Under the pieces are notes generated by a model. It made no database searches. It saw only the letters and a list, made by a program, of their open reading frames with translations, and had not been told where the DNA came from. DNA of 64,000 nucleotides from Escherichia phage vB_EcoM_ESCO25: the sequence record OM386656.1, one strand, 5' to 3'. The position numbers and the translations under genes are program-made. Shown here in pieces: positions 50,103-63,702 of the stretch (position 1 is the first letter of the stretch; each line of letters opens with the position of its first letter).

Positions 50103-50447
50103 ATGCAAGAGAGTAAAAATGTTCCGTTGAGTAGTTTACGTCTAATGAAGTTTTACAAAGCTTGGCTTGCTGGTGAGGTAGAAGGTCACACAACGAGTGG
50201 TTTGTGCATATGTTTGATTAAGTATGTAGAGGGAACATACCCTGATGAACTGTTACCTCGTCTACAACAAGAGATGAAATCACAGTTTATTGGTGCAGGA
50301 TTGGATTACAATTTCCCGTTTAATGAAGGTGGTTATGAGGAATACACCTTTGAACATAAAAAACATATTTGCCATAAAAACAAACATCGTATACAATGGG
50401 TGCTAGATAGAATTCAAGATTATGAAGGAGAGAAAGATGACAAATAG
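50103..50447 (+). CDS. paralog family A member 1 (GLC...WV-D-R small protein)
   Basis: 114 aa; FYKAWL...TSGLCICL...GLDYNFPF...RIQWVLDR; RBS gagaggag. Confidence 0.55.
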   Translation: MQESKNVPLSSLRLMKFYKAWLAGEVEGHTTSGLCICLIKYVEGTYPDELLPRLQQEMKSQFIGAGLDYNFPFNEGGYEEYTFEHKKHICHKNKHRIQWVLDRIQDYEGEKDDK

Positions 50448-50805
50448 TATTCCGTTGAGCAGTGCAACATTGCTTCGCTTCTATAAAGCATGGATTGCCA
50501 ACTATCCTGCAATGAATCGCACAACGAGTGGCTTATGTGGTTGTCTGGTAGATTATGTAGATGATTTTGTTGGTGATACACCTAGAGAAGAAGATAGAAA
50601 ATGGCGTGATCATTTGTTGGACCGTTTGAAATATGAAATGAGGAAACAATTTACATGTGCAGGGCTGGACTACAATCTTCCGTTCAATGTGGATTGCATG
50701 GATTACCTTTCAGAGTGTATAAACTTGGCGTGTCATACCAACACGTTACGTCTTCAGTGGGTGAAAGATCGGATTGAAGATGCAAATAATGCTTGCATTG
50801 AATAA
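50437..50805 (+). CDS. paralog family A member 2
   Basis: Start trimmed to MTNSIPLSS; FYKAWI...TSGLCGCL...GLDYNLPF...RLQWVKDR. Confidence 0.55.
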   Translation: MTNSIPLSSATLLRFYKAWIANYPAMNRTTSGLCGCLVDYVDDFVGDTPREEDRKWRDHLLDRLKYEMRKQFTCAGLDYNLPFNVDCMDYLSECINLACHTNTLRLQWVKDRIEDANNACIE

Positions 50806-50854
50806 AGATGTTTGTATAATGGATGACATAACAGATAGCCAATGAGGAGGTGAA

Positions 50855-51064
50855 ATGAAGAATTTGAAAACTGTCGCAATGTTCTTGACTGATCCTACAC
50901 GTGTGCAAGCACTGGCTAAAGCCAGCCGTGTAGCTGTAGAATTCCAAAACTTTAAGCCGTCCGTTGTGACAGGCAGTGAAACGTGTGTTATCGATTTCAT
51001 TAACGAATACTTCCGAGGGAATCCGGTTGGTCGTTACTTTATTAAGGGTCTGAAGGATGCATAA
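50855..51064 (+). CDS. hypothetical protein
   Basis: 69 aa ORF; RBS gaggagg. Confidence 0.5.
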   Translation: MKNLKTVAMFLTDPTRVQALAKASRVAVEFQNFKPSVVTGSETCVIDFINEYFRGNPVGRYFIKGLKDA

Positions 51065-51065
51065 C

Positions 51066-51287
51066 ATGAAACGCATGAAAATTCGTATTGAGAATGATGG
51101 TGGTTATAAAGGATTGGCACATGCAAAATTTCCACTTGTGTTGGAAGCTACTGTGGAATACAGTGGGCTTGCTCATGTGCGATTCTCGAAGATGATGGAA
51201 GTGCAGGAATGGTTTTGGGACGAGATAGATGCACGAGAAGGGGAAGATTATGTTTTCTTTCCTCACGAATATGAAATTGTCTATTAA
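51066..51287 (+). CDS. hypothetical protein, paralog of 56151..56372
   Basis: WFWDEIDAREGEDYVFFPHEYEIV versus WEWFEEDVWEGCDYVFFSDEVKVL. Confidence 0.5.
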   Translation: MKRMKIRIENDGGYKGLAHAKFPLVLEATVEYSGLAHVRFSKMMEVQEWFWDEIDAREGEDYVFFPHEYEIVY

Positions 51288-51299
51288 GGGTTGTGTGCA

Positions 51300-51539
51300 A
51301 TGATCACACCACAACAGAATGAAGCAGCAATGGATCTTCTCGATAGTTTGTATTTCGATAATTGGTACTCTGAATGTGAATGGATGAATATGCAAACTCT
51401 GAAAGAGAAGACAGAAGCGTTGATTACAGCAGATCAATTTCTTGCAGAGACGGAAAGAATGAATTATGATATGGCATCTCGCGCACGACGCGTTTCCATT
51501 TTCAATAAAATGTTAGCATTATGGGGAGGTAGAAAATGA
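51300..51539 (+). CDS. hypothetical protein
   Basis: ORF 51291..51539 with probable ATG at 51300. Confidence 0.45.
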   Translation: MITPQQNEAAMDLLDSLYFDNWYSECEWMNMQTLKEKTEALITADQFLAETERMNYDMASRARRVSIFNKMLALWGGRK

Positions 51540-51997
51540 GACAATTCACTATACTGGCAGCTTATGTGCAATGTGTTCACGATTATGTTAGTGCTCATAC
51601 AGGTTTGCTGGAAGTTACCAGTAAAATTGAAGGTAATATGGGTACTGTCTGTGTGCAACATACTTTATCCAATGTGCCGTTTAAAGTGTTCACTGTTGTA
51701 GCTGCCGATTACAATCGTGTAGATGTGCGTTTCTTGGATCATAATTTTCGTAACGCACTAGATAATATTGAAGATTATCTTCCCGTGAAACCTTTGTCAT
51801 TTCCACCAAGTCGTGCAAATAATGTAGTGACAAATCTTAATGAAAGAAATGTGGCTATGCACAAAAAAGTCCGTCAATTGAAAATGCTGATGGAAATGCA
51901 AGAAGAGATTGAAAAAGAGCTAAAAGAAGATTTTGGTATGCTTCCAAAAGACGCTTTGAAATGGTATGATGAACTAGGAGGAGAGAGCAATGTTTAA
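51536..51997 (+). CDS. hypothetical protein
   Basis: 153 aa ORF; ATGA overlap. Confidence 0.5.
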   Translation: MRQFTILAAYVQCVHDYVSAHTGLLEVTSKIEGNMGTVCVQHTLSNVPFKVFTVVAADYNRVDVRFLDHNFRNALDNIEDYLPVKPLSFPPSRANNVVTNLNERNVAMHKKVRQLKMLMEMQEEIEKELKEDFGMLPKDALKWYDELGGESNV

Positions 51998-52448
51998 AGA
52001 AGGTCATGTCTACCGTTTCCAGGATGAGGATTATATGCGACTATATTCTACCTTTGATAACAGTATTGCGGCTATCATTGGAGAGAATTTTTTCGAGGTG
52101 TTGAGCACTGATGCAAATGGTAATATCTTGTCAATGGTTGTAATAGGTATGAGAGATGGTATTATCACTGCTGGTGATGGGGATCGTTACATAATCAATT
52201 CTGCTCATATAGATTATTTTGTTGACGGCGGTGTTCGTGGTGGTCGTGGAAAACCCCAAGAAGAACCTGTTGATACAACAAAAGAAGAGTGGTATGTTGT
52301 AATGACTGGTGACACCTGTATTTCTGGATCTCAAAATTATGAAGAAGCTTTGAAAGAAGCAGCGGAGCATAAAATGGCTAATCCTACAGAAGAGGTTGAA
52401 GTTTATAAACGTTTGGTTGTTGCTACCATCGGCGTATCTTTTGTTTAA
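51990..52448 (+). CDS. MFK-family paralog 1
   Basis: 152 aa; N-terminal MFKEGHVYRFQDEDY shared with the next two genes. Confidence 0.5.
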   Translation: MFKEGHVYRFQDEDYMRLYSTFDNSIAAIIGENFFEVLSTDANGNILSMVVIGMRDGIITAGDGDRYIINSAHIDYFVDGGVRGGRGKPQEEPVDTTKEEWYVVMTGDTCISGSQNYEEALKEAAEHKMANPTEEVEVYKRLVVATIGVSFV

Positions 52449-52460
52449 AAGGAGAATGTT

Positions 52461-53246
52461 ATGTTTAAAGTAGGTTTTGTTTACAACTTCAAATCGGAAG
52501 ATACCAAAAACAATTTTGGTAAAGCTAGTATTCGTAATGCCTTTTTTGTAGGTTGCATCCAAGATAGTAAATTTAAAGTTTTGGATGTTGATTTTCTTGG
52601 TTCTGTATCCAAGGTGAAGGTATTAGACACAAATAAAATCATCGAAGGTGGTTCTGGGCTTTTCCCTGAAGGTTATAAGCTTGTAAGTTGTATGGATTAT
52701 ACTCGTTTTGAAGAACATACCCCTGAAGATTATGAAGATTCTCCTACAGGAGGCTGTGTCTTTGTAGAAGGTGGTGTCTATAAGTTTGCAAGTGAACAAG
52801 ATCGTAAGCTTTTCGCCAATTATATTGACGGAGGACAAACGACAAACAATGTAAACCGAAAAATTTCCGATCTTATTGGTGATGATCCTTTCGTGATCAC
52901 AAAGATGGTTGGACAAGATGTAACAGCAATCCGTAGGCTTGTATGTAATACAAATCATGTAGCAGGTGAAGGTTGGTTCAAGGAAGCTTGTGCGCTGCTA
53001 ATCAAAAGCGATAACCCTTATTTTAAAAATATTAAAGATGTTGTTGAGCCTAAACAAGAGGAATCCGCAGCGAATTTTAAACACTATGCTATTGTTAAAG
53101 GTATGAATGTCCAACTGGTGTCACATTCTTACGAAGAGATCGCCACAGAAGCAAAAAAGATGAAAGAAGAATACCCAATTTCTACTGTTGAGATCTATGA
53201 GCGTATTGGTGTTGTTAGTATTGAGCCTACTGCGGTAATAAAATAA
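52461..53246 (+). CDS. MFK-family paralog 2 (internally duplicated)
   Basis: 261 aa; MFKVGFVYNFKSEDTKNNF and an internal second copy VFVEGGVYKFASEQDRKLF. Confidence 0.5.
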   Translation: MFKVGFVYNFKSEDTKNNFGKASIRNAFFVGCIQDSKFKVLDVDFLGSVSKVKVLDTNKIIEGGSGLFPEGYKLVSCMDYTRFEEHTPEDYEDSPTGGCVFVEGGVYKFASEQDRKLFANYIDGGQTTNNVNRKISDLIGDDPFVITKMVGQDVTAIRRLVCNTNHVAGEGWFKEACALLIKSDNPYFKNIKDVVEPKQEESAANFKHYAIVKGMNVQLVSHSYEEIATEAKKMKEEYPISTVEIYERIGVVSIEPTAVIK

Positions 53247-53255
53247 GGAGCTATT

Positions 53256-53693
53256 ATGTTCAAAGCTAATGCTGTTTACTGTTTCAAAAGCAAAGCTGCA
53301 TGTGAAGCTTTCTCTACAATCTCTGATGAAAATTTCAAAATGGCAGCTTTGATTGAAGGGTCTTGTTTCCGCGTCGAAGATGTTAGTGAATCAGGATCTG
53401 TTTGCTCGTTGACTTTATTGGACAGCGGAGATATTATTGAAGCTGGACAGTATCCGTTCAGAAGTTGGGAGATATTGTTAGCTCGCGGAGAGCGTAACTT
53501 TTTTATGTGCGTGTCTGCGGGGGAAGTTGTGAAAGAAACTAAGGATGTTTCTGTTTACAATTCTGAATTTATAAGTTATAGTGAGTATCAACATCTGGAA
53601 GGCATTGTTGGTCACTTGTTATCTCTGATTGACATTGAATGTGACTTGCCTGAATCATTGAAAGAAGAGTTGAAAGCATTAGATCTGCTGTAA
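53256..53693 (+). CDS. MFK-family paralog 3
   Basis: 145 aa; MFKANAVYCFKSKAACEAF. Confidence 0.5.
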   Translation: MFKANAVYCFKSKAACEAFSTISDENFKMAALIEGSCFRVEDVSESGSVCSLTLLDSGDIIEAGQYPFRSWEILLARGERNFFMCVSAGEVVKETKDVSVYNSEFISYSEYQHLEGIVGHLLSLIDIECDLPESLKEELKALDLL

Positions 53694-53720
53694 TGTTCCG
53701 CACAACGAAAGGAGAATAAA

Positions 53721-54020
53721 ATGAATCTGACCGAACAGTTACGCCGTATTGCAAAAGAAGCTTCCTTCAACTTCCCTGTTGAAGAAGTGATCGAGACATG
53801 TTTTGCTGAAGCACGAGCGGGAAACTCTTCAAGAAATTTCACGCCATCTGATTTTGGTCTGGATAATTCCCCTACCCACCCAGGGGAGATCTACAATCAG
53901 GTGAAGTGGATGGATGAAGCAGTAGCAATTCTTCGTGAGCGTGGGCTTATTGTTTATAAAGAAATGGATCTGAACGGGGCATACGAGTGGATCACTATTG
54001 ATTGGTCGGAGGTGAAATAA
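53721..54020 (+). CDS. hypothetical protein
   Basis: 99 aa ORF; RBS aaggagaa. Confidence 0.5.
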   Translation: MNLTEQLRRIAKEASFNFPVEEVIETCFAEARAGNSSRNFTPSDFGLDNSPTHPGEIYNQVKWMDEAVAILRERGLIVYKEMDLNGAYEWITIDWSEVK

Positions 54021-54229
54021 TGGTTACTATCACATTGACAGTTACACAAGAGCAAGCAGAAGAATTACGTGATGCAGTGGCATACATGGGACGCTCTTAT
54101 TATATGCCTTATAAATCACAAGATGTTTTTGCTACAGCCATTGAGAAAGCTTTAAACAAATATCGAGAAACTCATGCCGTTCCTAAAGTATCAGCAGAAG
54201 AGTTTGGCACTTGGCACGAAGTTAACTAA
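54020..54229 (+). CDS. hypothetical small protein
   Basis: Start trimmed to MVTITLTV with RBS ggaggtg. Confidence 0.45.
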   Translation: MVTITLTVTQEQAEELRDAVAYMGRSYYMPYKSQDVFATAIEKALNKYRETHAVPKVSAEEFGTWHEVN

Positions 54230-54239
54230 GGAGGTATCG

Positions 54240-54473
54240 ATGAAAGGTAACAAGATGAAAGTTAATCAGGTACCGAGTGCATACACTTTGTGGCTTGCGC
54301 GAGCGTTACACCAGACGATCAAAAATCCTAAGAAGCCAATGAAGAGTGGGAAGAAGTTTATGTCTAAGGGCAAAACAACCTTTGGCTTCACTCGTATGTC
54401 TGTTAAGATGAAAAGGCTGGGGTATAAGCCAAACTACGCTCGTTACCCTTCTGAATACAACTGGTTTGACTAA
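54240..54473 (+). CDS. hypothetical small basic protein
   Basis: Start trimmed to MKGNKMKV with RBS aaggagg. Confidence 0.45.
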   Translation: MKGNKMKVNQVPSAYTLWLARALHQTIKNPKKPMKSGKKFMSKGKTTFGFTRMSVKMKRLGYKPNYARYPSEYNWFD

Positions 54474-54488
54474 AAAGGAGAACAAAAC

Positions 54489-54707
54489 ATGAAAACATCT
54501 ATTCGCGTGAAACATGATCCGAACAGCAGTTACCCATACGTGTATGTTGAACGTCATGAAGGGGACTATTACACCATAAAACGTAAAGTCCCAACTGATA
54601 CAGGGTTTAACTTTGATGTTATTGCGCTGGATGATCAAGGTGTTGATAATCTGGTGAATGCATTACTCGCATTGAAGGAAGTACGATATGAAAATCAGAC
54701 TAATTGA
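54489..54707 (+). CDS. hypothetical protein
   Basis: 72 aa ORF; RBS aaggaga. Confidence 0.5.
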   Translation: MKTSIRVKHDPNSSYPYVYVERHEGDYYTIKRKVPTDTGFNFDVIALDDQGVDNLVNALLALKEVRYENQTN

Positions 54708-54879
54708 AAAGGGTGATACCATCTTCGAAACCCGTAAAGGTGAAATCACAGAGGTTCCAGAAGAAAGATCAACAATTCTTGTCGATGGTGTTTTGAAATA
54801 TTGCTGTAGTGTCTATAAATCTTACGAGAAGGATCAGTATGGCGATCCAGAAATCTGGTTTGTAGGTGATGTGTATTAA
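54688..54879 (+). CDS. hypothetical small protein
   Basis: 63 aa ORF. Confidence 0.45.
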   Translation: MKIRLIEKGDTIFETRKGEITEVPEERSTILVDGVLKYCCSVYKSYEKDQYGDPEIWFVGDVY

Positions 54880-54888
54880 GGGGGTAAA

Positions 54889-55248
54889 ATGAGCGGAGAA
54901 TTTCGTAAAGTAAAAGATATCTCCCTCTTTGAGGGAGACGTTGTTCGGATCAATGGGAGATTGTTAAAATTTCACCAGTTGATGTATCCAAGTACATCTC
55001 GTAATGTGATGGTGATCTTCCAGGACGCTTTTGCTGCAAGCGATTACACTCCGTATTCAGCAGAAACTGAAGTATATTTTGAAGGATATGTTGATCGACC
55101 ACTTGCAAAAGAGATGTGGGACAAGTATCATATAAACATTACAGATTCACAGGGTGTCTTCTGGAACTACCCTAGTGAAGGTAAGATGGCTTTCGATTCT
55201 TGTGATCGTTTAGCCGAAGAGATTGCCGAATGGCGTGATACTCACTAA
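54889..55248 (+). CDS. hypothetical protein
   Basis: 119 aa ORF. Confidence 0.5.
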   Translation: MSGEFRKVKDISLFEGDVVRINGRLLKFHQLMYPSTSRNVMVIFQDAFAASDYTPYSAETEVYFEGYVDRPLAKEMWDKYHINITDSQGVFWNYPSEGKMAFDSCDRLAEEIAEWRDTH

Positions 55249-55263
55249 AACAGGAGAAAGATT

Positions 55264-55440
55264 ATGGCTACTTTTCAACAATTGAAAGATGTTTCACGTT
55301 TAGTAAGAAAAATCCGAGAAGCAGACGCTGCTGTGCGGAATGCATTAACGCCAGCAGAGCGTGAAGATCTTGAAGAGGAGGTGAAAACAGCCGAGAATGC
55401 TTTTGCTGTGTATCTTTCGACACTGCATACAGGAGGTTAA
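55264..55440 (+). CDS. hypothetical small protein (58 aa), not on ORF track
   Basis: MATFQQLKDVSRLVRKIREADAAVRNALTPAEREDLEEEVKTAENAFAVYLSTLHTGG; RBS caggaga. Confidence 0.4.
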   Translation: MATFQQLKDVSRLVRKIREADAAVRNALTPAEREDLEEEVKTAENAFAVYLSTLHTGG

Positions 55441-55755
55441 ATGTCAGAGGAACTTAAAGAATTTTATCAGGCATATCATAACTGGCTATTAGCTGGTGCT
55501 CCAGATAATAATCCTTTCTGGCATGATAAAGGATTATGTAGTTGCCTCTATCTTTGGTCTGGTGGTTATGATGACCTAAATTATGAAATGCAAATGCAAT
55601 TTCGAGAAGCAGGATTGTCTGAAGAATACCCGTTTGATGACGGAGACTGGTTTAAATATGATTTTGCACAAAGAAACGGGCTATTGCATTTGAATGCTGC
55701 CCGTATAAAATGGGTAAAAGATCATGCTACACAGGAGGATGTGCAATGCCAATAG
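55441..55755 (+). CDS. paralog family A member 3
   Basis: 104 aa; FYQAYHNWL...KGLCSCL...AGLSEEYPF...RIKWVKDH. Confidence 0.55.
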   Translation: MSEELKEFYQAYHNWLLAGAPDNNPFWHDKGLCSCLYLWSGGYDDLNYEMQMQFREAGLSEEYPFDDGDWFKYDFAQRNGLLHLNAARIKWVKDHATQEDVQCQ

Positions 55756-55946
55756 TGTTTAGTTTCTTGGTAATTGTTATGGTTGTTCTTTTCGCGGCAT
55801 GGCTTTGGGATTTTGACCCAGGAGCAGCGCAGCAAAGAGCTACAGACTGGAAAGAACAATGTATTGTGCTCAAACATGAACGAAATGCGGAGAAATTTCT
55901 TGACCTGGAGTGTGATCGCCTTGTAAGATACAAGCAAGACAAATAA
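55746..55946 (+). CDS. small membrane protein
   Basis: Start trimmed to MPIVFSFLVIVMVVLFAAWLW; RBS caggagga. Confidence 0.45.
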   Translation: MPIVFSFLVIVMVVLFAAWLWDFDPGAAQQRATDWKEQCIVLKHERNAEKFLDLECDRLVRYKQDK

Positions 55947-55960
55947 CCTTGAGGTGCAAA

Positions 55961-56149
55961 ATGGTAATTGAGATTAAACTTGAGTATGCTGGCGCTGTTG
56001 CTCTGATCGCACAAATGCTTGGAGCAAAGATTGAAGAAGTGTATATCAACGCTTGGAGCGTAGAGATTGATGTTCCTATGGACAACATTGCTAATCGCTT
56101 GCTGGTGGCAGAGTGTGAACGCACCAACATAATCTACAAAGGAGCATAA
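55961..56149 (+). CDS. hypothetical small protein
   Basis: Start trimmed to MVIEIKLEY. Confidence 0.45.
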   Translation: MVIEIKLEYAGAVALIAQMLGAKIEEVYINAWSVEIDVPMDNIANRLLVAECERTNIIYKGA

Positions 56150-56150
56150 T

Positions 56151-56372
56151 ATGAAAATTAGAGTTTGTGATGTATTGGGTTATGTTGGTTTTGAGAATGT
56201 TCAGATTCCTTTTGTTGTTGAAGCACATCTTGTTAGTGAGGATATGACAACATTCTTTGTTACGATAGAAGAAATGTCCAAAGTCGAGGGATGGGAGTGG
56301 TTTGAAGAAGATGTTTGGGAAGGTTGTGATTACGTATTCTTCTCTGACGAAGTGAAGGTTCTTGCGGAGTAG
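56151..56372 (+). CDS. hypothetical protein, paralog of 51066..51287
   Basis: 73 aa; see paralog motif above. Confidence 0.5.
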   Translation: MKIRVCDVLGYVGFENVQIPFVVEAHLVSEDMTTFFVTIEEMSKVEGWEWFEEDVWEGCDYVFFSDEVKVLAE

Positions 56373-56374
56373 GC

Positions 56375-56581
56375 ATGTCTTGTTTTACGAAAGCAGTGTC
56401 CATATGTAAGAAACAGTATGAAAGTGATTACGGAATATTTAATATTCCTGCGGATCATACAGAGTATTGTTCATGCGGTGGCAGAATGAAGAAAACAGTG
56501 ATTTATGCGGATAATGGAGATGAACTTGTTCCGGTTATTGTTTGCAAAGCTTGTCATTCTGTTAAAACATTAAAAGCGTAA
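56375..56581 (+). CDS. small Cys-containing protein
   Basis: 68 aa; CSCGG...CKAC. Confidence 0.45.
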   Translation: MSCFTKAVSICKKQYESDYGIFNIPADHTEYCSCGGRMKKTVIYADNGDELVPVIVCKACHSVKTLKA

Positions 56582-56676
56582 GGAGTCGGGACACCCGACG
56601 ATTGGAGCTAAAAATTTTGCGTACAACCCTTTCCGCCCAACAGGGGCGCGTCGGGTAAATAAAGAGGAGAGTTTAT

Positions 56677-57075
56677 ATGAAAAAGATCATTGTAGGTTTA
56701 TTGCTACTCGTTGCATCACTTGGAACAGCAAATGCGTCTCAAGTTTATGAGTGTGTGTCAGATGTGGTTGTTAAAAATCTGAAAGGTGAAGTGATTTCTG
56801 GTCCTAAGAAAATGGCTTCTGTTGTCATTAATAAAGATAACTCCTTTATCCTTAAAAATTCAGGTGGTGCTTTGATGAGTGGCATTCTGCAATACACAGG
56901 AGAAAAAAGTAAAGATGGTAGTGCTATGTACGGTTCACAACAATTTATTGGCACTACTGAAGTAGTAATGATGCGCACAGAGTATCGAGACACTTTGGCT
57001 TGGTTTGCATTTCTAAAAAATGATAAAACAATAACGAATGTTCTTACTCTAGAAGCTGATTGTACGCAACGATAA
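56677..57075 (+). CDS. secreted protein (signal peptide)
   Basis: MKKIIVGLLLLVASLGTANA signal peptide; RBS agaggaga. Confidence 0.55.
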   Translation: MKKIIVGLLLLVASLGTANASQVYECVSDVVVKNLKGEVISGPKKMASVVINKDNSFILKNSGGALMSGILQYTGEKSKDGSAMYGSQQFIGTTEVVMMRTEYRDTLAWFAFLKNDKTITNVLTLEADCTQR

Positions 57076-57084
57076 GGGGGATTT

Positions 57085-57531
57085 ATGACTAAAATGAGAC
57101 ATTACGCTGTAAACTGCAACGATGTTTGGCGTTTGTGTCCTGATGATCCGACAGAAGGCACATTTGTAAGATATGAGGATTATAAAGAGTTATCGGATGC
57201 TGTAGTCGCATTGTTAACAGATATCCGTTCACGTTATCCAGGACAAGATTTCACTTGCCCTCACATCAAACTTCTTGCCCTTCTGGTAGAAGGTGAGAAA
57301 GAAGTGGAAGATGGCTTCAAGCGTGTAGAGTATCAAGGTGAAACTTTAGAGGTTCCTGAATTTGTTAATTATATTGCAACAGATTCGAGTGGCGAGCGTT
57401 ATGGCTACAGCCATAAGCCAGAGATTCCTGATTGGATTCCCGCTTGGAGATATTCCGTTAGTACCGGAGACTATATCTTCCTTGGTGTAGGTAGTAGTAA
57501 GGATTGGCGTTTCTCTTTGACAGAGGTTTAA
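57085..57531 (+). CDS. hypothetical protein
   Basis: 148 aa ORF; RBS aaggggga. Confidence 0.5.
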   Translation: MTKMRHYAVNCNDVWRLCPDDPTEGTFVRYEDYKELSDAVVALLTDIRSRYPGQDFTCPHIKLLALLVEGEKEVEDGFKRVEYQGETLEVPEFVNYIATDSSGERYGYSHKPEIPDWIPAWRYSVSTGDYIFLGVGSSKDWRFSLTEV

Positions 57532-57535
57532 TAAT

Positions 57536-57799
57536 ATGAAAGAGACATTGCCAGCAGCATACCGTTTGAATGATGAACGTATTTGGGAGTGGACCGACGT
57601 TTCTTGTTTTTACCCTGAAATAGTTCAATATTGGCGAGCAAAAGGGTGTGTTGTAGTTATCAACCCTTGTGGACCAGTGGATGAAGATTGCTTGTATCTC
57701 GATGGAAAGTGGCACAGTTATTGTCGCTGGCCTTTTGAGTGGATGTGTAAAGAAGATCTCCCAGAGGGTTGGGAGTATCCAAAAGCAAATAGGAGATAA
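57536..57799 (+). CDS. hypothetical protein
   Basis: 87 aa ORF. Confidence 0.5.
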   Translation: MKETLPAAYRLNDERIWEWTDVSCFYPEIVQYWRAKGCVVVINPCGPVDEDCLYLDGKWHSYCRWPFEWMCKEDLPEGWEYPKANRR

Positions 57800-57800
57800 T

Positions 57801-58163
57801 ATGTCTAAAGATTTTGTTGAAGTGTTTGTCAAAGATGAAGAAACTGGTTTAGGCACGGGTTTCATTTGTGAAGAAACTTTTAAACGTGAACAAGAAAAAG
57901 CTATCCTTATGCGAAACTATGATCATGCATTAGAACAATGGAAAAATGCAGAACAAAAATGCAAAAACCTTTATGCAGAAAATAGAAAACTACAAGATCA
58001 AATGGAGTTGTTAGCTATCAGTTTACGATCTCTCATTTTGGCTGTAGAAGACGGTTTTAAAAATCCAGATGGTTTTCCTGTGAGCGATATTGAACATGAT
58101 TTGTATCTTGCTCGTGGTGCTTACTTTTATGTTAAACAGAAGTCTGTAGAAGGAGAGAAGTGA
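57801..58163 (+). CDS. hypothetical protein
   Basis: Start trimmed to MSKDFVEVFV with RBS ataggaga. Confidence 0.5.
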   Translation: MSKDFVEVFVKDEETGLGTGFICEETFKREQEKAILMRNYDHALEQWKNAEQKCKNLYAENRKLQDQMELLAISLRSLILAVEDGFKNPDGFPVSDIEHDLYLARGAYFYVKQKSVEGEK

Positions 58164-58360
58164 TGGAAGAAAAACTGGAACGTATTATCGAGTTAGCCAT
58201 GTCTATTGGCTACGACGATTGTTTTCTCCAAACTATTGGAGAAACACAGAACGATTACGACTCTTGGGTGAAAGAGTTGGAAGAACTCAAAACTTCCTTG
58301 ATTGCTGACTTTGCTGAAGCCGAGGATAAAGCAGATCGTTACAACTATCTGTGTCGATAA
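58160..58360 (+). CDS. hypothetical small protein
   Basis: 66 aa ORF; ATGA overlap. Confidence 0.45.
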   Translation: MMEEKLERIIELAMSIGYDDCFLQTIGETQNDYDSWVKELEELKTSLIADFAEAEDKADRYNYLCR

Positions 58361-58422
58361 GCCTTGACATTTATTTTATGTATGGTATACATACATTATC
58401 AACGTGAGCAAGGTGGTGTAAT

Positions 58423-58695
58423 ATGAATAAAGATCGGTTTCTTTCTTTAGTCGCGGAAGCTCCTTTTGATGTTCTTGGGGTGAGATTATGGAAAGACAGA
58501 AACTATGGGTTAGATGTTCAAACATATTCTCTTTGGTTGGTTGGGGAGCACAGCTTAGATGAAAGCTTGTGCATGGGTAGGGATTCTCGTTCCCTTTGTT
58601 TAAAGTTCAGAAGCTTAGAACGCGCAAACAAAGAGCAAGAAAAACTAACGAGGTGGCTAAATGAAAACAAGCACAGGGTTGATGGAGTTTTATAA
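58423..58695 (+). CDS. hypothetical protein
   Basis: 90 aa ORF; candidate promoter TTGACA at 58374 upstream. Confidence 0.5.
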   Translation: MNKDRFLSLVAEAPFDVLGVRLWKDRNYGLDVQTYSLWLVGEHSLDESLCMGRDSRSLCLKFRSLERANKEQEKLTRWLNENKHRVDGVL

Positions 58696-58987
58696 AATTT
58701 ATCTAGCATGGATTGATGTTGGTGCTCCTGATGGTAAACCTTTTCGGCGGGATTGTGGTTTGTGTGCCAACTTGTTCGATTATGTGCACAGAGGTAATTA
58801 CAACCCCATTATAACAACCTTGTCAGATGAAATGCACGCACAGTTTTACCATAAAGGGTTGAATCAAGGACTCCCTTTCAATGAGAACTACGATGCATAT
58901 GTCTTAGAGTCAGATGCAGATGCCTGTCACCTGAACGTGGACAGAATTAATTGGGTAAGAGATCGTATTGCAGAGGAGGATGAATAA
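58661..58987 (+). CDS. paralog family A member 4
   Basis: 108 aa; FYKIYLAWI...CGLCANL...KGLNQGLPF...RINWVRDR. Confidence 0.55.
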   Translation: MKTSTGLMEFYKIYLAWIDVGAPDGKPFRRDCGLCANLFDYVHRGNYNPIITTLSDEMHAQFYHKGLNQGLPFNENYDAYVLESDADACHLNVDRINWVRDRIAEEDE

Positions 58988-59214
58988 TGTCGGATTATAA
59001 CTGGTATGAACTTGAAGCTGTTTGTCAGTTTTATGATTCAATAGTTCTACGTGATCCAATCTGTCAAGAATTGAGTCGCCGTGCAAGTGCATTGGCAATC
59101 CGTGTTAAAATAAATGGTTGGAACCCAGACTTGGAAAAAGAGTTGGAATTTCTCTTAGAAACAACACGTGTCTTCCACAAAGTGTTCCCTGAATGGTTCG
59201 AGATGGAAGAATGA
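58987..59214 (+). CDS. hypothetical protein
   Basis: 75 aa ORF. Confidence 0.5.
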   Translation: MSDYNWYELEAVCQFYDSIVLRDPICQELSRRASALAIRVKINGWNPDLEKELEFLLETTRVFHKVFPEWFEMEE

Positions 59215-59432
59215 TCATGTGGATTGTACGTCTTAAATATGATGGCCCTGATCCTTGGGTGCATAACGTTTGCGGTTGTGATTCCGAAGAAGCAGCACAT
59301 AAAGCAGGAAGAGCAGCAAGTGCCTTCTATAATGACAAACCTTTTTGTTTAGAAATGGCAGGTGTGGTTTGTATGAGCATGTTCGAATACTACTCTTATG
59401 AAATCAAAGAACACCAAGGGGAATGGAAATAA
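59211..59432 (+). CDS. hypothetical small Cys-containing protein
   Basis: Start trimmed to MIMWIVRLKY. Confidence 0.4.
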   Translation: MIMWIVRLKYDGPDPWVHNVCGCDSEEAAHKAGRAASAFYNDKPFCLEMAGVVCMSMFEYYSYEIKEHQGEWK

Positions 59433-59494
59433 ATCGTTGACAGAAGGATCTGTCTTTGTCATAATCATCTCATCGAAACAAAGAGGAGAAAATC

Positions 59495-60049
59495 ATGAAA
59501 AAGTTTATTTGCACCCGTTCCACTAACAGTGATATCCTTGTAGGTAAGGTTATCAAAGGAGAACTCTTCCATGCAAACGGTAAGAAATATATTCTGCTGA
59601 AAGATTCTTTCAACGGGGAATATCCGCGCTGCACTTTCTTCAATTACAACACTCCATTTGCTTTAGAAGGAGATGCTTGGGACTGGGCTGAACTTCATCC
59701 TTTCTGTGAAGATGGACAGACAGAAGAGCAGGAAGAATCTACGGGAAGTTTACGTGATAAACTGCGTAATAAAGCACTGCAAGCAAATTCCCATTTTACT
59801 GAAATGGTAGACGCCGTTCTATTAGAGATTGAAGATTGTGCGGAACAAGGGAAGTTTGAAAAATACTTTGAACCTTCCAGTTTTGGTTTGTGCAATAACC
59901 CTTCTTCTTATGAACAGATAAGTGAACAGAAAAGAGGGGCAAATGTTGTAGCTACAATGCTACGTGCAAAAGGTTTGGATGTAACATTGGCAACCGCAGA
60001 GCACAGTATTTTTGGGATTATCAAACACATCATTATTAGTTGGAACTAA
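59495..60049 (+). CDS. hypothetical protein
   Basis: 184 aa ORF; candidate promoter (ttgaca at 59447) and RBS agaggaga upstream. Confidence 0.5.
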   Translation: MKKFICTRSTNSDILVGKVIKGELFHANGKKYILLKDSFNGEYPRCTFFNYNTPFALEGDAWDWAELHPFCEDGQTEEQEESTGSLRDKLRNKALQANSHFTEMVDAVLLEIEDCAEQGKFEKYFEPSSFGLCNNPSSYEQISEQKRGANVVATMLRAKGLDVTLATAEHSIFGIIKHIIISWN

Positions 60050-60060
60050 AGGAGATAGAT

Positions 60061-60360
60061 ATGCAAGTTGAAGACCTGATCAAAATTTTGAATAAAGCAA
60101 AAGAAAAAGGTGCTATCAAGGACTGGAAACGTGAAACAAGTGAAGACCTATCTCACTGTTGCCGAGAATTTTACATCGAAGGTATTGCTGACGATCATTA
60201 TATTATCGAATGGTATATCAACTTAATGACTCTTAAGCACGGTTCGTTTGAGGTTTGGTTTGATGACATTGATGTAAATGGTTTTCATCCTGGCTATAAA
60301 ATCGCTATGCAGTTATCTTATCGTAGAGAAGTTGTAGCACATTTGGGTTTACATAACTAA
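60061..60360 (+). CDS. hypothetical protein
   Basis: Start trimmed to MQVEDLIKIL with RBS aaggaga. Confidence 0.5.
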   Translation: MQVEDLIKILNKAKEKGAIKDWKRETSEDLSHCCREFYIEGIADDHYIIEWYINLMTLKHGSFEVWFDDIDVNGFHPGYKIAMQLSYRREVVAHLGLHN

Positions 60361-60370
60361 GGAGAAAAGA

Positions 60371-60694
60371 ATGCAAGCAGTTGTTAACGAAGCTATTATG
60401 AACTTATCCTTTTTGTTAGCTGGTTTAGGAGGTGTTCTCATAGGTTTGGCTCTTATCTGGTGTATTCGTCGATTAATCGGGTACCGACAAAAAGGTGTTT
60501 CATGTTTTGTATCTTACAATTTTACAACTGCTTACAGCAATGAGGTTGGATCTGGCAATGCTCAAGCATTTTTACCAACATATCCTCCTACGGTGGAAGA
60601 TATTCGAAACTTGGAAGTAGAACTTATGGGACTAAGTGATAACTATACATCTCTAGTTATTCAAAATATTTTTCGACTAAAACAGGAGGCGTGA
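60371..60694 (+). CDS. membrane-anchored protein
   Basis: 107 aa; N-terminal helix LSFLLAGLGGVLIGLALIWCI. Confidence 0.5.
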   Translation: MQAVVNEAIMNLSFLLAGLGGVLIGLALIWCIRRLIGYRQKGVSCFVSYNFTTAYSNEVGSGNAQAFLPTYPPTVEDIRNLEVELMGLSDNYTSLVIQNIFRLKQEA

Positions 60695-60907
60695 ATGAAG
60701 GTACATTACCCTCATCCCTTTGATCCTAAAAACAAAGCCGTAATTCTTCGTCAGTGGCAACGGGTTTGTCGTACTAAATGTCCAATCAATAGCCCACACA
60801 ATGTAGACAAGGACTATCTTGGGACATTTGTTGAATACACTTACATAGACAAAAACAAGCGTAAACAACATGTCGAGGAATACTGCTTAAGAGTAGAATG
60901 GCTGTAA
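60695..60907 (+). CDS. hypothetical small protein
   Basis: 70 aa ORF. Confidence 0.45.
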   Translation: MKVHYPHPFDPKNKAVILRQWQRVCRTKCPINSPHNVDKDYLGTFVEYTYIDKNKRKQHVEEYCLRVEWL

Positions 60908-60977
60908 ATAATAAATACCTTGACAAGTGTTTATTCGTTTTGTAAAGTGAGGATACAGCAATGGTTTAGGAGTGGTT

Positions 60978-61649
60978 ATGAAAAAGTTTGTTGTTTACAG
61001 TCGTCTTTCTAAACAGAAAAAAGGTGAGGCACAATATGGTATGGAGAGCCAAGAGAATGATATCCGTTACTTCTTAGACTCTGTGCCTGATGCGGAAGTT
61101 ATTGGTCAATTTTCTGAATACTATTCGGGTAAGGGCGATTGGAAGCAACGTAAGGAACTGGTTAAAGCGGTTGAAATGTGTAAAGCTACCGGAGCAACTT
61201 TATTGGTAGCTAAAGTTGACCGCTTGGGTCGTAACAACGCCTCCGTAGCAACTCTTCTAGAAATGATTGATGTTAAGATAGCCATCATGCCAGACGCAGA
61301 TAAAATGGTTATACAGCTTCTGTCTGTTCTGGCTGAACAAGAAGTTAGAGGTATTGCTGATCGTATTAAAAAGGGTCTTGCTGTAGCAAAAAGCAAAGGT
61401 GTTTTATTAGGCAGTGCTAATCCTAAAACTGCCGCTGCACGTAGAAAAGGAAAAATGGAATACAATTCTGTTAAAGCAGACGCTTTTGCAGAGACATTTC
61501 GTGAACGCTTGGAGATCCTTAGAGATTTAAATACACCTTACAAAACTATTGCTGAAAAATTCAATAGTAAGAAAATAGCAACAGCACGTGGTGGTAAATG
61601 GGATGCTAAAACTGTTTCTCGTTTGTGTGCCAGACTGAACATTAAATAG
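60978..61649 (+). CDS. small serine recombinase (resolvase/invertase family)
   Basis: Start trimmed to MKKFVVYSRLSKQKKGEAQYGMESQ (catalytic-Ser region), LLVAKVDRLGRN, C-terminal HTH-like region; own promoter (ttgacaagtg...) at about 60921. Confidence 0.65.
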   Translation: MKKFVVYSRLSKQKKGEAQYGMESQENDIRYFLDSVPDAEVIGQFSEYYSGKGDWKQRKELVKAVEMCKATGATLLVAKVDRLGRNNASVATLLEMIDVKIAIMPDADKMVIQLLSVLAEQEVRGIADRIKKGLAVAKSKGVLLGSANPKTAAARRKGKMEYNSVKADAFAETFRERLEILRDLNTPYKTIAEKFNSKKIATARGGKWDAKTVSRLCARLNIK

Positions 61650-61657
61650 GAGAGGAT

Positions 61658-62068
61658 ATGAAACAAGAAAATGAATCTGTAGATCACTTAATCATGCTGT
61701 CAGCCCTTTTTGCCGGATGGGAGGTATTTTTTGAAAATTTGTTCAATTCTGCTACAGATGGTTCTGATTTTATGCGCCAATTTAAACGACGAACTGTTGA
61801 GGACTATACTTTCTATTCAGGTCGGATTGAAAAAGGTTACGAAGATATAGATACAATACTTACAATTAAAGTTTTAGATGTGATGTTTAGTGTTATAGAT
61901 GCTATCGATGAAAGTCTTCCGATTTTAGAAGATTGCAATACGAAAGCTTATGTTTACAAAATAGCCCGTGCTTATGTGTCTGCAAACAGTTGTCTTCTTT
62001 CCACCCAAATTGCGGTGAACAATCTTGCCAACTTGTTCGATGAAGGAGAAACTTTTTATGACAATTGA
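61658..62068 (+). CDS. hypothetical protein
   Basis: 136 aa ORF; RBS aggagagga. Confidence 0.5.
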   Translation: MKQENESVDHLIMLSALFAGWEVFFENLFNSATDGSDFMRQFKRRTVEDYTFYSGRIEKGYEDIDTILTIKVLDVMFSVIDAIDESLPILEDCNTKAYVYKIARAYVSANSCLLSTQIAVNNLANLFDEGETFYDN

Positions 62069-62423
62069 TTTGAAGTGTAAGAGGATTCTTTTAGATTTCT
62101 ATAATAATTGGTTAGAACACCTCCGTCTCTTTCCACGAGAAAGTGGTTACGCTGATGTTGGCTTATGCCGAGGTCTACGTATGTATATAAGTGATGAATT
62201 TCGAGCCGATCATTCTTTAGCATATTCTGTTTATGGTATGCAATTAGCCAGTTTTGAAAATGCTGGTTTAGATACAACTTTCCCGTTTAACACAGCAAAA
62301 TCTTTTGAGCAAGAGTGTAAGGAAAAACGTTGCATGTTTAATGAAAAACGTGTACAGTGGGTTAAGGATCGAGTTAAACAACTGGAACAAGAGTTGGATT
62401 TCTTCTATGATGAGGCAGAATAA
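62058..62423 (+). CDS. paralog family A member 5
   Basis: Start trimmed to MTIDLKCKRILLDFYNNWL; ...VGLCRGL...AGLDTTFPF...RVQWVKDR. Confidence 0.55.
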   Translation: MTIDLKCKRILLDFYNNWLEHLRLFPRESGYADVGLCRGLRMYISDEFRADHSLAYSVYGMQLASFENAGLDTTFPFNTAKSFEQECKEKRCMFNEKRVQWVKDRVKQLEQELDFFYDEAE

Positions 62424-62695
62424 TGGATAGACAAACCTTAAAAACAATGGCAGATGCCACTAATTCCCCGTACTTTGAAAAAGTAAGTAAATTGGTAGCT
62501 CAAGCCGCAGAGGAAGGATATTATAACATAAACATCCACAACCCAAGTCTTATACTAGAAATGCCAAGTGATAAGAAGATACAAGAGAGTATCTGTGAAG
62601 GTATTGTTAGTTACTGGCGCGAGCGTGGGTGTGGTGCAAACATGGCTTTAGACAGTGCAAACATTGTAAGATATATAAATATTTCTTGGGGGTGA
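62423..62695 (+). CDS. hypothetical protein
   Basis: 90 aa ORF. Confidence 0.5.
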   Translation: MDRQTLKTMADATNSPYFEKVSKLVAQAAEEGYYNINIHNPSLILEMPSDKKIQESICEGIVSYWRERGCGANMALDSANIVRYINISWG

Positions 62696-62700
62696 TTTTT

Positions 62701-63312
62701 ATGATCCAATGCACTCATATCCAAATTACTTGGAGAGATGAACTTTACCATTTAGGACAATTTACTGTAGGGGAAACATACCCTGTCATTAAACATAATC
62801 CTAACATCGCAAACTTTGACAGGATGGTTCTTGTTGAGGACGATCTAGGTCAAACTTATTCTTTAGATCTAAAATATCCGTTTTCTTACGGCTACGATTG
62901 GATCGTTACTTTTGAAGACGTGGAGGAAAATAAAGCAATGAACGAAAAAAATTCTTGGTATTATCGTTGTGAACTGCCGCCAGTAGGTGAAAAGGTTATC
63001 TTTGTTCCTGATTTGGAAAGATATTCTTGGGACAGTTCTTATTCTGTTCCTAAAGAAGGCACCGAAGTTGAAGTTATTGCACATCGCACAACTTCGCATG
63101 GTAACGATGTAGCAGTTGTTTTCTGGGATGATGAAGGCGCTGCTTGTGCAGGTGGCTTTGTTGCAGGTAATTTTGAACCCCTGCCAGATCCTTTGAAGGA
63201 GGCAATTTTAGGCGTAGCTTCTTTTGGACTCTCTTACACATCTGCACAAGAGATCGTAGAAGGTATTTTAAACGGTACCGTTCCAAACGAAATTTTTAAA
63301 CAGATTAAATAA
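62701..63312 (+). CDS. hypothetical protein
   Basis: Start trimmed to MIQCTHIQITW. Confidence 0.5.
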   Translation: MIQCTHIQITWRDELYHLGQFTVGETYPVIKHNPNIANFDRMVLVEDDLGQTYSLDLKYPFSYGYDWIVTFEDVEENKAMNEKNSWYYRCELPPVGEKVIFVPDLERYSWDSSYSVPKEGTEVEVIAHRTTSHGNDVAVVFWDDEGAACAGGFVAGNFEPLPDPLKEAILGVASFGLSYTSAQEIVEGILNGTVPNEIFKQIK

Positions 63313-63363
63313 TAGTTGCACCCCGTTCTGCGGGGTGTTATTGTATACGTAAAGGAGGCGCTA

Positions 63364-63702
63364 ATGTATTACACTGAAGACTACATATTGTATAACTTTT
63401 TTAAAGGCTGGTTGGAATGGGCGGAAAAAGCTCCTGTTGGAGATTGTGTTTTTCCTTGGGACTCTCGTCAAGGTTTGTGTCGTTGTTTGGAAGACTGGCT
63501 TATAACCACAAGCTACAATTCAGAGACTAAGAAATCTACATCAAAGAGACTAAAAATGTTATTTGAAGAAGATGGTTTAGATCCGATTTATCCTTTCGGT
63601 GCTGAAAGCTTCCACAATGGTCTTTTTCTTGGCACTCAACATTATGACAAAGATCGCGTAGATTGGGTAAAAGAAAAGGTAGCACAATATGAATGGGGCT
63701 AA
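63364..63702 (+). CDS. paralog family A member 6
   Basis: Start trimmed to MYYTEDYILYNFFKGWL (RBS aaggagg); ...QGLCRCL...DGLDPIYPF...RVDWVKEK. Confidence 0.55.
   Translation: MYYTEDYILYNFFKGWLEWAEKAPVGDCVFPWDSRQGLCRCLEDWLITTSYNSETKKSTSKRLKMLFEEDGLDPIYPFGAESFHNGLFLGTQHYDKDRVDWVKEKVAQYEWG

What the first reader, a model, noticed from the sequence alone, without database searches (positions are those of the whole stretch)
50103..63702. Six-member paralogous family of ~110-aa proteins (F-Y-x2-W-L ... G-L-C-x-C-L ... G-L-D-x2-F-P-F ... R-[IV]-x-W-V-[KL]-D-R) dispersed over 14 kb
Members at 50103, 50437, 55441, 58661, 62058 and 63364 share a conserved skeleton but are otherwise highly diverged, and two are tandem. 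I do not recognise the family. Multi-copy, rapidly diversifying small-protein families in phage early regions are characteristic of host-interaction or anti-defence arsenals in which each paralog may target a different host factor.
Basis: seen in the sequence. Interest (0 to 1): 0.65.

Follow-up and report, generated by a model that had tools for sequence, protein, structure and literature searches.

The report
Six-copy uncharacterised early phage protein family
Six diverged copies of a small all-helical protein really are encoded here in a phAPEC8-like E. coli phage; they belong to a very large phage-borne family (it includes gp3 of phage N4) that catalogues list only as "unknown function", and its role, possibly host takeover or counter-defence, is still untested.

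Summary
Six + strand genes at exactly the stated starts, each with a Shine-Dalgarno site, encode 104-122 aa homologues. A profile of the six finds only these six in the window (E 1e-39 to 1e-45; next hit 0.036).

The window is a Phapecoctavirus (98% identical to phAPEC8_ev052). The family is already catalogued as PHROG 2510 and pVOG VOG7392, function unknown. It has no Pfam, NCBIfam, PADLOC or PDB match. It is large: 2,055 50%-identity clusters, found in early regions of N4 (gp3), N4-like, phiKMV-like and rV5-like phages.

AlphaFold gives a confident five-helix domain (pLDDT 91.6) with no solved-structure relative. C35, P72, F73, R95 and W98 are essentially invariant. Natural two- and three-domain fusions exist, and one modelled fusion is rigid, which suggests dimers.

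"Rapidly diversifying" is not supported. Orthologues are under purifying selection (pN/pS 0.13, neighbours 0.20). What changes is gene content: 6 to at least 8 copies per genome, a chimeric gene, a replaced cassette, and one copy exchanged between genera.

An anti-defence or host-takeover role is plausible from position alone and remains untested.

The parts
50103..50447 (+). Paralogue m1 (114 aa). First gene after the roughly 1.5 kb gene-free stretch. Tandem with m2; its last 11 nt overlap the start of m2.
   Evidence: ORF; SD GAGGAG upstream; PHROG 2510 E 6e-26; HMM E 1e-43; orthologue annotated VOG7392 in phage anhysbys; pN/pS 0.09.
50437..50805 (+). Paralogue m2 (122 aa). It has a long insertion between helices 2 and 3. 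It is 47% identical to m1.
   Evidence: (E 4e-25). The gene is 90-95% identical at DNA level to genes in Justusliebigvirus muut and other ~146 kb phage genomes that share nothing else of the region at that level (H74-H78). pN/pS 0.28.
55441..55755 (+). Paralogue m3 (104 aa). Its start abuts the stop of the upstream gene, and its end overlaps the next gene.
   Evidence: (E 9e-29); pN/pS 0.02.
58661..58987 (+). Paralogue m4 (108 aa), the copy closest to the family consensus. It was used for the structure model and for residue numbering.
   Evidence: E 8e-32; E 3e-45. AlphaFold2 model pLDDT 91.6, pTM 0.84, five helices. BLASTP to N4 gp3 2.5e-12. pN/pS 0.27.
62058..62423 (+). Paralogue m5 (121 aa). 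It is divergent and lacks E57 and H90 of the family consensus.
   Evidence: (E 2e-26); pN/pS 0.04. No orthologue was found in phiWec190.
63364..63702 (+). Paralogue m6 (112 aa), the most divergent copy. It lacks E57 and Q61 and has N92D. It is preceded by a terminator-like hairpin at 63318-63338.
   Evidence: (E 1e-26); pN/pS 0.07.

Best explanation
The six genes are old, individually conserved paralogues of a very large phage-borne domain family that I call N4 gp3-like (PHROG 2510, pVOG VOG7392).

Most likely each product is a small, soluble, mildly acidic five-helix protein made early in infection as an accessory factor. The aromatic-rich core and a few invariant residues (C35, P72-F73, R95, W98, numbered on m4) would hold a common scaffold. 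The variable parts would give each paralogue its own macromolecular partner. These parts are the end of helix 2, the length-variable loop between helices 2 and 3, helix 4 with the loop after it, and the C-terminal tail. The working unit is probably a homo- or heterodimer. The partners are most plausibly host proteins (takeover or counter-defence).

Shown here: homology, distribution, fold prediction, purifying selection and gene-content flux. Inferred: early expression, dimerisation, binding through the variable surfaces, and host targets.
For: Family and spread:
- Real family, six copies only.
- 2,055 50%-identity clusters at E<=1e-3 and 1,220 at E<=1e-10.
- 256 phage records and 631 places by tblastn with m4 alone.

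Early or left-end position:
- m1 is gene 1 next to the record start in Schickermooser, and the first CDS after the record end in Mt1B1_P17.
- N4 gp3 lies in the left-end gene block upstream of the RNAP1/RNAP2 genes.
- JG068 gp5 lies between annotated host promoters and a terminator.
- A relative sits in the same left-end block as Gp1 and Gp2 homologues, upstream of the RNA polymerase gene, in an N4-like contig.

Accessory behaviour:
- 6 to at least 8 copies among Phapecoctavirus genomes and 3 in Justusliebigvirus muut.
- The tandem pair is collapsed to one chimeric gene in PNJ1809-36.
- The seventh copy of other genomes is replaced by another cassette in this window.
- m2 has been exchanged between genera.

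Each copy is maintained: pN/pS 0.02-0.28.

Scaffold with variable surface:
- Conservation across 198 domains is concentrated in aromatic or hydrophobic positions and in helix-cap or turn positions (N92 or D before helix 5; N, G or D at position 74).
- Residues 39-56 and 81-89 are near-random and variable in length.

Dimer inference:
- Natural two- and three-domain fusions exist.
- The modelled fusion has pLDDT 94.7 and pTM 0.81 with a 4-residue linker.
- m1 and m2 overlap and are probably translationally coupled.

Distribution outside phage records:
- No relative found in 185,579 species-representative bacterial genomes with three motif patterns.
- Only one hit among 72,556 plasmids, a 93 kb record carrying Phd/Doc genes that looks like a P1-type phage-plasmid.
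Against: - No experiment or homologue links any member to a host target or a defence system.
- There is no similarity to known anti-defence proteins. AntiDefenseFinder and dbAPIS profiles were not available to test.
- No transcript data exist for this phage, so early expression rests on position and analogy.
- C35 (195 of 196) and R95 (197 of 198) are invariant, and E57, Q61, H90 and N92 are strongly conserved. That is more than a pure scaffold usually needs and points to a shared site.
- An arms-race reading predicts elevated dN/dS, which is not seen.
- The family's presence in phages of alpha-, beta- and gamma-proteobacteria argues that at least part of the function is directed at something universal.
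Confidence: 0.4

Rival explanations
1. All members share one biochemical activity carried by a conserved site: an enzyme, or a binder of a small ligand or phosphate group. C35 lies in the first turn of helix 2 and R95 in the first turn of helix 5, with N92 and H90 in the preceding loop and the P72-F73 loop nearby. The paralogues would then differ only in substrate range, timing or dose.
For: Across 198 domain instances, C35 is present in 195 of 196, R95 in 197 of 198, P72 in 198 of 198 and N92 (or D) in 194 of 198. E57+Q61 occur together in 146 of 198, and H90 in 153 of 198. A Cys at a helix N-terminus next to an Arg at another helix N-terminus is a classic arrangement for a reactive thiol or anion site (established knowledge; the spatial proximity was not checked). 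The wide host range of the family fits a universal target.
Against: - m5 and m6 have lost E57 and Q61, and m5 has also lost H90, yet both are under strong purifying selection.
- H90 is Y or W in about 14% of members.
- There is no co-occurrence of C37 with C89 (odds ratio 1.07, p 0.85), so a Cys3His zinc site is not supported.
- N92 and N74 are explained as helix-cap or turn residues.
- I could not obtain the model coordinates to test whether C35 and R95 are close.
Confidence: 0.2
2. The proteins serve the phage's own programme rather than attacking the host. Examples would be adaptors or chaperones for early proteins, or regulators of phage transcription, replication or translation.
For: They sit among other early genes of unknown function. 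In N4 the neighbouring genes gp1 and gp2 are cofactors of the phage RNA polymerase II (PMC4496689). Strong purifying selection and long-term retention of each paralogue fit housekeeping-like roles.
Confidence: 0.15
3. The copies are redundant duplicates or selfish passengers of recombination hot spots with little function, or they are structural or assembly proteins.
For: There are chimeric genes and cassette replacement at the loci, and a serine recombinase gene lies in the same block.
Against: - Every copy is intact and has an SD site.
- pN/pS is 0.02-0.28.
- The paralogues are only 24-47% identical, so they are ancient and retained.
- No flanking DNA repeats were found.
- There is no match to any structural or assembly family in Pfam, PHROGs, NCBIfam or the PDB.
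- The genes lie far from the morphogenesis module.
Confidence: 0.04

Closest known systems
PHROG 2510 (with weaker matches to PHROGs 6418 and 27059) and pVOG VOG7392
   Same: All six proteins match the PHROG 2510 profile at E 6e-26 to 8e-32. Their orthologues in phage anhysbys are annotated VOG7392. This is the same family, already clustered by others.
   Different: These catalogue entries carry no function, no structure and no literature. The PHROG profile is 219 positions long because it includes two-domain members; the window's genes cover only one domain (profile positions about 5-113).
Bacteriophage N4 gp3 (ABK54374.1), a protein of unknown function encoded in the left-end gene block
   Same: It is homologous: HMM E 3e-20 and BLASTP to m4 2.5e-12 at 32% identity over 103 aa. 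It has the same size (104 aa) and a left-end position, as the third gene between gp2 and gp4.
   Different: N4 has one copy and this phage has six. No function is published for gp3. The N4 review names gp1, gp2, gp15 and gp16 as the early products needed for middle transcription, not gp3. Pfam has families for N4 Gp1 and Gp2 but none for gp3.
Small early counter-defence and host-takeover proteins of virulent phages, such as T7 gp0.3 Ocr, T7 gp5.9, lambda Gam, anti-CRISPR proteins, and the nucleotide sponges Acb2, Tad1 and Tad2 (named from my own knowledge)
   Same: They share the size class (about 100 aa), the position in early or left-end accessory regions, variable presence among relatives, horizontal exchange, and oligomeric working units.
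   Different: There is no sequence or fold similarity to any solved structure, and those proteins are in the PDB. The window proteins are only mildly acidic (pI 4.5-5.9), so they are not obvious DNA mimics. Orthologues show no sign of positive selection. No functional test exists.
Other paralogous small-gene families in the same block, such as the goF-annotated trio at 51990-53693
   Same: They show the same genomic behaviour: several diverged copies of small genes of unknown function within one + strand block.
   Different: They are unrelated in sequence. None has the family's breadth, which spans phages of alpha-, beta- and gamma-proteobacteria.

Membership tests
PHROG 2510 (unknown function) | Significant full-domain match to the family profile HMM | tested here: met
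   All six match at E 6e-26 to 8e-32, covering profile positions about 5-113 of 219.
pVOG VOG7392 | Orthology to proteins assigned to this group | tested here: met
   The seven family genes of phage anhysbys are annotated VOG7392. Six of them are 89-99% identical in protein sequence to the window's six.
N4 gp3-like domain (my working name for the superfamily) | A domain of about 100 aa and five helices with invariant C35, P72-F73, R95 and W98, plus the near-invariant motifs L-x2-F-Y, W17, G-L-C, Q-F and N92 | tested here: met
   All six keep C35, P72, F73, R95 and W98. Conservation was measured over 198 domains. The helix pattern comes from the AlphaFold2 models. m5 and m6 deviate at E57, Q61, H90 or N92.
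Characterised anti-defence proteins (Acr, Ocr/ArdA, Gam/gp5.9, Acb, Tad, Gad and similar) | Sequence or structural homology to a member with demonstrated activity | tested here: not met
Characterised anti-defence proteins | Demonstrated neutralisation of a defence system, or binding to its components | not testable with these tools
   This needs wet-lab work or multimer modelling. No literature exists on any member.
Phage early genes | Transcribed in the first minutes of infection | tested here: inconclusive
   The evidence is positional only. The genes lie next to the reported genome end, and homologues lie in the N4 left-end gene block and in the JG068 host-promoter-driven region. The sigma-70 consensus scan is not enriched over shuffled sequence (48 sites against 43.9±7.5). 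No transcriptome was found.
Defence-system components (PADLOC) | Match to a defence protein model | tested here: not met
   The only hit is one spurious PifA match at E 0.022 for 1 of 6 proteins.
Virion structural or assembly proteins | Homology to a structural family, or location in the morphogenesis module | tested here: not met
   No Pfam, PHROG, NCBIfam or PDB structural match. The morphogenesis genes lie about 45 kb away in the reference genome.
Cys3His zinc-binding module | Co-conserved set of four metal ligands | tested here: not met
   Only C35 is invariant. C37 is present in 17% of members, C89 in 37% and H90 in 77%. C37 and C89 do not co-occur (odds ratio 1.07, p 0.85).

The most novel reading that the evidence does not exclude
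The N4 gp3-like domain is a structurally new dimeric scaffold carried by phages. Virulent phages of Proteobacteria would expand it into arrays of inhibitors, so that the six copies here form a true counter-defence or host-takeover arsenal, each copy blocking a different host factor. An alternative reading is that the invariant Cys and Arg form a new kind of small thiol-dependent active site. Either reading would give a function to more than 2,000 protein clusters and to an N4 gene that has gone unexplained since the genome was sequenced.
Probability: 0.3. Interest if true: 0.75.

Novelty: already known. Interest (0 to 1): 0.42.

Why it matters
The family's existence is not new. It is clustered in PHROGs and pVOGs and annotated as "hypothetical protein" in more than 100 GenBank genomes. 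Its scale and the complete absence of knowledge about it are what stand out.

- It comprises at least 2,055 clusters at 50% identity.
- It sits in the early or left-end regions of several phage lineages used as models or for therapy: N4-like, phiKMV-like, rV5/phi92/phAPEC8-like and Pakpunavirus-like phages.
- A confident predicted fold has no solved relative.
- A handful of residues are invariant.
- The family repeatedly expands and fuses.

This makes it a well-defined, tractable target for assigning function to phage "dark matter". N4 gp3 and the six phAPEC8-type copies are easy genetic entry points. If the proteins prove to be host or defence inhibitors, that would bear on host-range prediction for therapeutic Phapecoctavirus phages.

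Tried and rejected
Database and fold searches that found nothing:
- Pfam, on the six proteins and on 136 diverse members: no family.
- NCBIfam and PADLOC: nothing.
- PDB by sequence profile, twice: nothing below E 0.36. A weak repeated hit to 4rd8 (an uncharacterised protein) aligns two segments with the wrong spacing and was judged spurious.
- The afdb50 fold library was unavailable. BFVD returned only uncharacterised phage proteins.

Hypotheses tested and dropped:
- DNA mimicry: pI is only 4.5-5.9.
- A Cys3His zinc site: no covariation.
- Informative domain fusions: extra regions in P0096 and P0105 are N-terminal hydrophobic stretches that may be mis-called starts. P0131 has an unknown 125-aa insert. 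None matches Pfam.
- Conserved partner genes: N4 and JG068 neighbours have no homologues next to the window's copies.
- DNA repeats flanking the copies: none.
- Rfam families in the window: none.

Searches for relatives elsewhere:
- Pattern scans of bacterial genomes found no relative.
- An IMG/VR pattern scan gave a single locus and was not pursued.

Literature searches (N4 gp3, PHROG and VOG identifiers, accession numbers, Phapecoctavirus paralogues or transcriptomes, Stephanstirmvirinae anti-defence) found nothing on function.

One error of mine: an apparent dN/dS of 4.25 for the gene upstream of m6 came from a start coordinate that was off by one. The corrected value is 0.09.


Full report
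**1. The observation**

ORF listing shows six + strand ORFs at the stated places. Each of these starts has a Shine-Dalgarno sequence 5-10 nt upstream; the longer alternative starts do not. The same starts are used in the GenBank annotation of the closest relative.

MAFFT aligns the six with 15 invariant columns and 28-48% identity to m1. Pairwise BLASTP is significant for 14 of 15 pairs. A profile of the six, run with all filters off against all 671 six-frame ORFs of the window, finds the six at E 3e-45 to 3e-39 and nothing else below 0.036.

So the family is real, has exactly six members in the window, and m1 and m2 are tandem with an 11-nt overlap.

**2. Where the window comes from**

The region is 97-98% identical to Escherichia phage phAPEC8_ev052 and to about 100 other Phapecoctavirus genomes (Stephanstirmvirinae, roughly 150 kb myoviruses). 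All six genes are annotated "hypothetical protein" there. Scanning the complete reference genome with the family HMM gives the same six copies and no others.

The genes lie in a long + strand block of small, tightly packed genes. In the reference genome this block runs from about 137.6 kb, across the record ends, to about 25.9 kb, and it is flanked by - strand replication and nucleotide-metabolism blocks.

Several deposited genomes start about 600 nt upstream of m1, so m1 is gene 00001 in Schickermooser. Neighbouring genes have almost no annotation. The exceptions are a serine recombinase and three tandem genes annotated as goF in some records.

**3. What the family is**

All six match PHROG 2510 ("unknown function") at E 6e-26 to 8e-32. 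The orthologues in phage anhysbys are annotated pVOG VOG7392. There is no Pfam, NCBIfam or PADLOC family for the six, or for 136 diverse relatives. No PDB chain matches by sequence profile.

An exhaustive HMMER search of 1.84 billion cluster representatives finds 2,055 proteins at E<=1e-3 and 1,220 at E<=1e-10. Most are single domains of 95-130 aa. Some carry two or three tandem copies of the domain in one polypeptide.

tblastn with m4 alone finds 631 places in 256 phage records, covering the following groups:
- Phapecoctavirus, Justusliebigvirus and rV5-like phages;
- Klebsiella phages;
- N4 and many N4-like phages of Achromobacter, Erwinia, Delftia and Rhizobium;
- phiKMV-like phages of Ralstonia and Burkholderia.

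The N4 member is gp3, the third gene of the left-end gene block. In Burkholderia phage JG068 the member is gp5, which lies between annotated host promoters and a terminator. In an N4-like metagenomic contig the member sits just downstream of the Gp1 and Gp2 homologues.

Motif-based scans of 185,579 species-representative bacterial genomes found no relative. This negative is limited by the exact-pattern method. Among 72,556 plasmids there is one hit, a 93 kb record carrying Phd/Doc genes that looks like a P1-type phage-plasmid. No paper in the library mentions the family or a function for N4 gp3.

**4. Anatomy of the protein**

AlphaFold2 with a 24-sequence alignment gives a confident model of m4: pLDDT 91.6, pTM 0.84, and five helices at residues 5-19, 34-43, 49-64, 77-85 and 93-107.

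Conservation across 198 domain instances, numbered on m4:
- C35 (195 of 196), P72 (198 of 198), F73, R95 (197 of 198) and W98 are essentially invariant.
- L7, F10, Y11, W17, G33, L34, F62, N92 and V99 exceed 90%.
- E57, Q61, Y80, E83 and H90 are at 70-82%.

Much of this is an aromatic core. N92 (or D) immediately precedes helix 5, and N, G or D at position 74 follows the Pro-Phe turn, so these look like capping or turn residues. C35 lies in the first turn of helix 2 and R95 in the first turn of helix 5. Their invariance is not explained by packing alone.

By contrast, residues 39-56 and 81-89 are almost random in sequence, and the loop between helices 2 and 3 varies in length.

The six proteins are mildly acidic (pI 4.5-5.9) and rich in aromatic residues. 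A Cys3His metal site is not supported, because C37 and C89 do not co-occur.

A natural two-domain member models as one rigid body, with pLDDT 94.7, pTM 0.81 and a 4-residue linker. Together with the overlapping m1/m2 genes, this suggests that single-domain members work as homo- or heterodimers. That is an inference.

**5. Evolutionary behaviour**

I compared the window with six other Phapecoctavirus genomes by the Nei-Gojobori method. Each paralogue is under purifying selection (pN/pS 0.02-0.28). The family pooled gives 0.13 and the other 35 genes of the block give 0.20. One apparent outlier among the neighbours was my own frame error; its corrected value is 0.09. The paralogues are therefore ancient (24-47% identity) and stably kept, not rapidly diversifying.

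What does change is gene content:
- Copy number is 6 in the window, ev052 and Schickermooser, 7 in Mt1B1_P17 and anhysbys, at least 8 in phiWec190, and 3 in Justusliebigvirus muut. One of the muut copies is a 194-aa gene annotated VOG7392 that is long enough for two domains, although my HMM scan resolved only one.
- In PNJ1809-36 the tandem pair is a single chimeric gene. Database proteins P0002 and P0005 are m1/m2 chimeras. Several relatives share m1's N-terminus and m2's C-terminus around divergent middles.
- The seventh copy of other genomes lies between m4 and the gene at 59495. In the window that segment is replaced by a different cassette.
- m2 is 90-95% identical at DNA level to genes in Justusliebigvirus muut and other ~146 kb phage genomes, which share nothing else of the 14.5 kb region at that level. 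This indicates recent exchange between genera.

No DNA repeats flank the copies.

**6. Interpretation**

The data fit accessory early proteins built on a conserved helical, probably dimeric, scaffold with paralogue-specific variable surfaces. I commit to this reading at about 0.4 confidence, with host proteins as the most plausible partners. The supporting points are the position in early regions, the accessory gene-content dynamics, the scarcity in the bacterial chromosomes and plasmids searched, and the pattern of conserved core and variable surface.

The main rival (about 0.2) is a shared biochemical site built on the invariant Cys and Arg. Two facts weaken a strict catalytic reading: E57, Q61 and H90 are lost in m5 or m6, which are nonetheless well conserved, and the fold resembles no enzyme.

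A phage-internal role (about 0.15) is disfavoured by the family's spread across phages with unrelated expression strategies and by its copy-number flux. Junk-duplicate and structural-protein readings are essentially excluded by the selection data and by the absence of any structural match.

**7. Comparison with what is known, and verdict**

As a family this is already catalogued (PHROG 2510, VOG7392), and the genes are annotated in more than 100 genomes, so the existence of the six paralogues is not new. Nothing is known about function, structure or expression.

"Rapidly diversifying" is contradicted at the orthologue level, and "anti-defence" is untested.

Interest is moderate. A specialist would not be surprised to see a paralogous unknown family in a 150 kb phage. 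The size of the family, its new predicted fold, its invariant Cys and Arg, its membership of N4 gp3, and its repeated expansion and fusion still make it a good target for functional work.

Noticed in passing
window 48690-50100: A gene-free stretch of about 1.5 kb lies directly upstream of m1. Its first half (about 48.7-49.2 kb) is strikingly A+C-rich, with CAA- and ACAA-like runs on the + strand, followed by short direct and inverted repeats (49224-49369, 49399-49454). Several deposited genomes (Schickermooser, Mt1B1_P17, BI-EHEC, 10C3) begin at about window 49490, and a comparable gap exists in all relatives examined. It may be a genome terminus, a packaging site or a regulatory region.
   Followed up: partly
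window 48087-48111 and 48652-48676: The same GC-rich terminator-like hairpin (ACAAGGGGCGCAC[TC]AAGCGCCCTTT, 96% identical) occurs twice, 565 nt apart. It appears to bracket a single small gene that has a near-consensus sigma-70 promoter at 48147-48175. This looks like a one-gene promoter-terminator module.
   Followed up: no
window 51057-51287 and 56151-56372: A second paralogous pair of small proteins (76 and 73 aa; 36% identity, E 2e-10) lies in the same block. Both end in a shared EGxDYVFF motif.
   Followed up: no
window 51990-52448, 52461-53246 and 53256-53693: Three tandem genes share an N-terminal module (MFK-x-G/A-x-VY-x-F; PHROGs 3710, 622 and 22975). The 261-aa middle gene contains the module twice. 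Some GenBank records call them "goF mRNA metabolism modulator", but the PHROG goF matches are weak (E about 1e-6).
   Followed up: partly
window 53721-54020 and 59495-60049: The C-terminal half of the 184-aa protein is homologous to the 99-aa protein (30% identity, E 1e-7). This is a third small paralogous family in the block.
   Followed up: no
window 60978-61649: This gene encodes a serine recombinase or DNA invertase (Pfam Resolvase E 5e-18; PHROG 125). Several GenBank records mis-annotate it as "methionine ABC transporter ATP-binding protein". A recombinase in a virulent phage's small-gene block is unexplained.
   Followed up: partly
window 59200-60050: This is a cassette-replacement hot spot. 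Other Phapecoctavirus genomes carry a 213-nt gene, a seventh family copy and a 414-nt gene here. The window, ev052 and Schickermooser instead carry a divergent 73-aa gene (56-61% identical to the version in the genomes that carry the seventh copy) and the longer 184-aa gene.
   Followed up: partly
window 50437-50816: The m2 gene is an island of 90-95% DNA identity with Justusliebigvirus muut and other ~146 kb phage genomes. Records labelled "Campylobacter phage C3" are among the hits and are probably mislabelled coliphages.
   Followed up: partly
window 56677-57075: A 132-aa protein with a clear N-terminal signal peptide (MKKIIVGLLLLVASLGTANA) sits among cytoplasmic small proteins. It may be a secreted or periplasmic factor, for example for superinfection exclusion.
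   Followed up: no
window 26619-26990 (- strand): This ORF is homologous to N4 gp12 (35% identity over 100 aa, E 6e-14). It is a second link between this myovirus and the gene set at the left end of N4.
   Followed up: no
L018 (NZ_CP148392.1) 4968-5447: The only plasmid-database relative is a 159-aa protein in a 93 kb E. coli record that carries Phd/Doc genes and looks like a P1-type phage-plasmid. It has the family domain at the N-terminus plus a C-terminal extension. A DUF2829 gene (the family of the anti-Thoeris protein Tad2, from my own knowledge) lies about 4 kb away.
   Followed up: no
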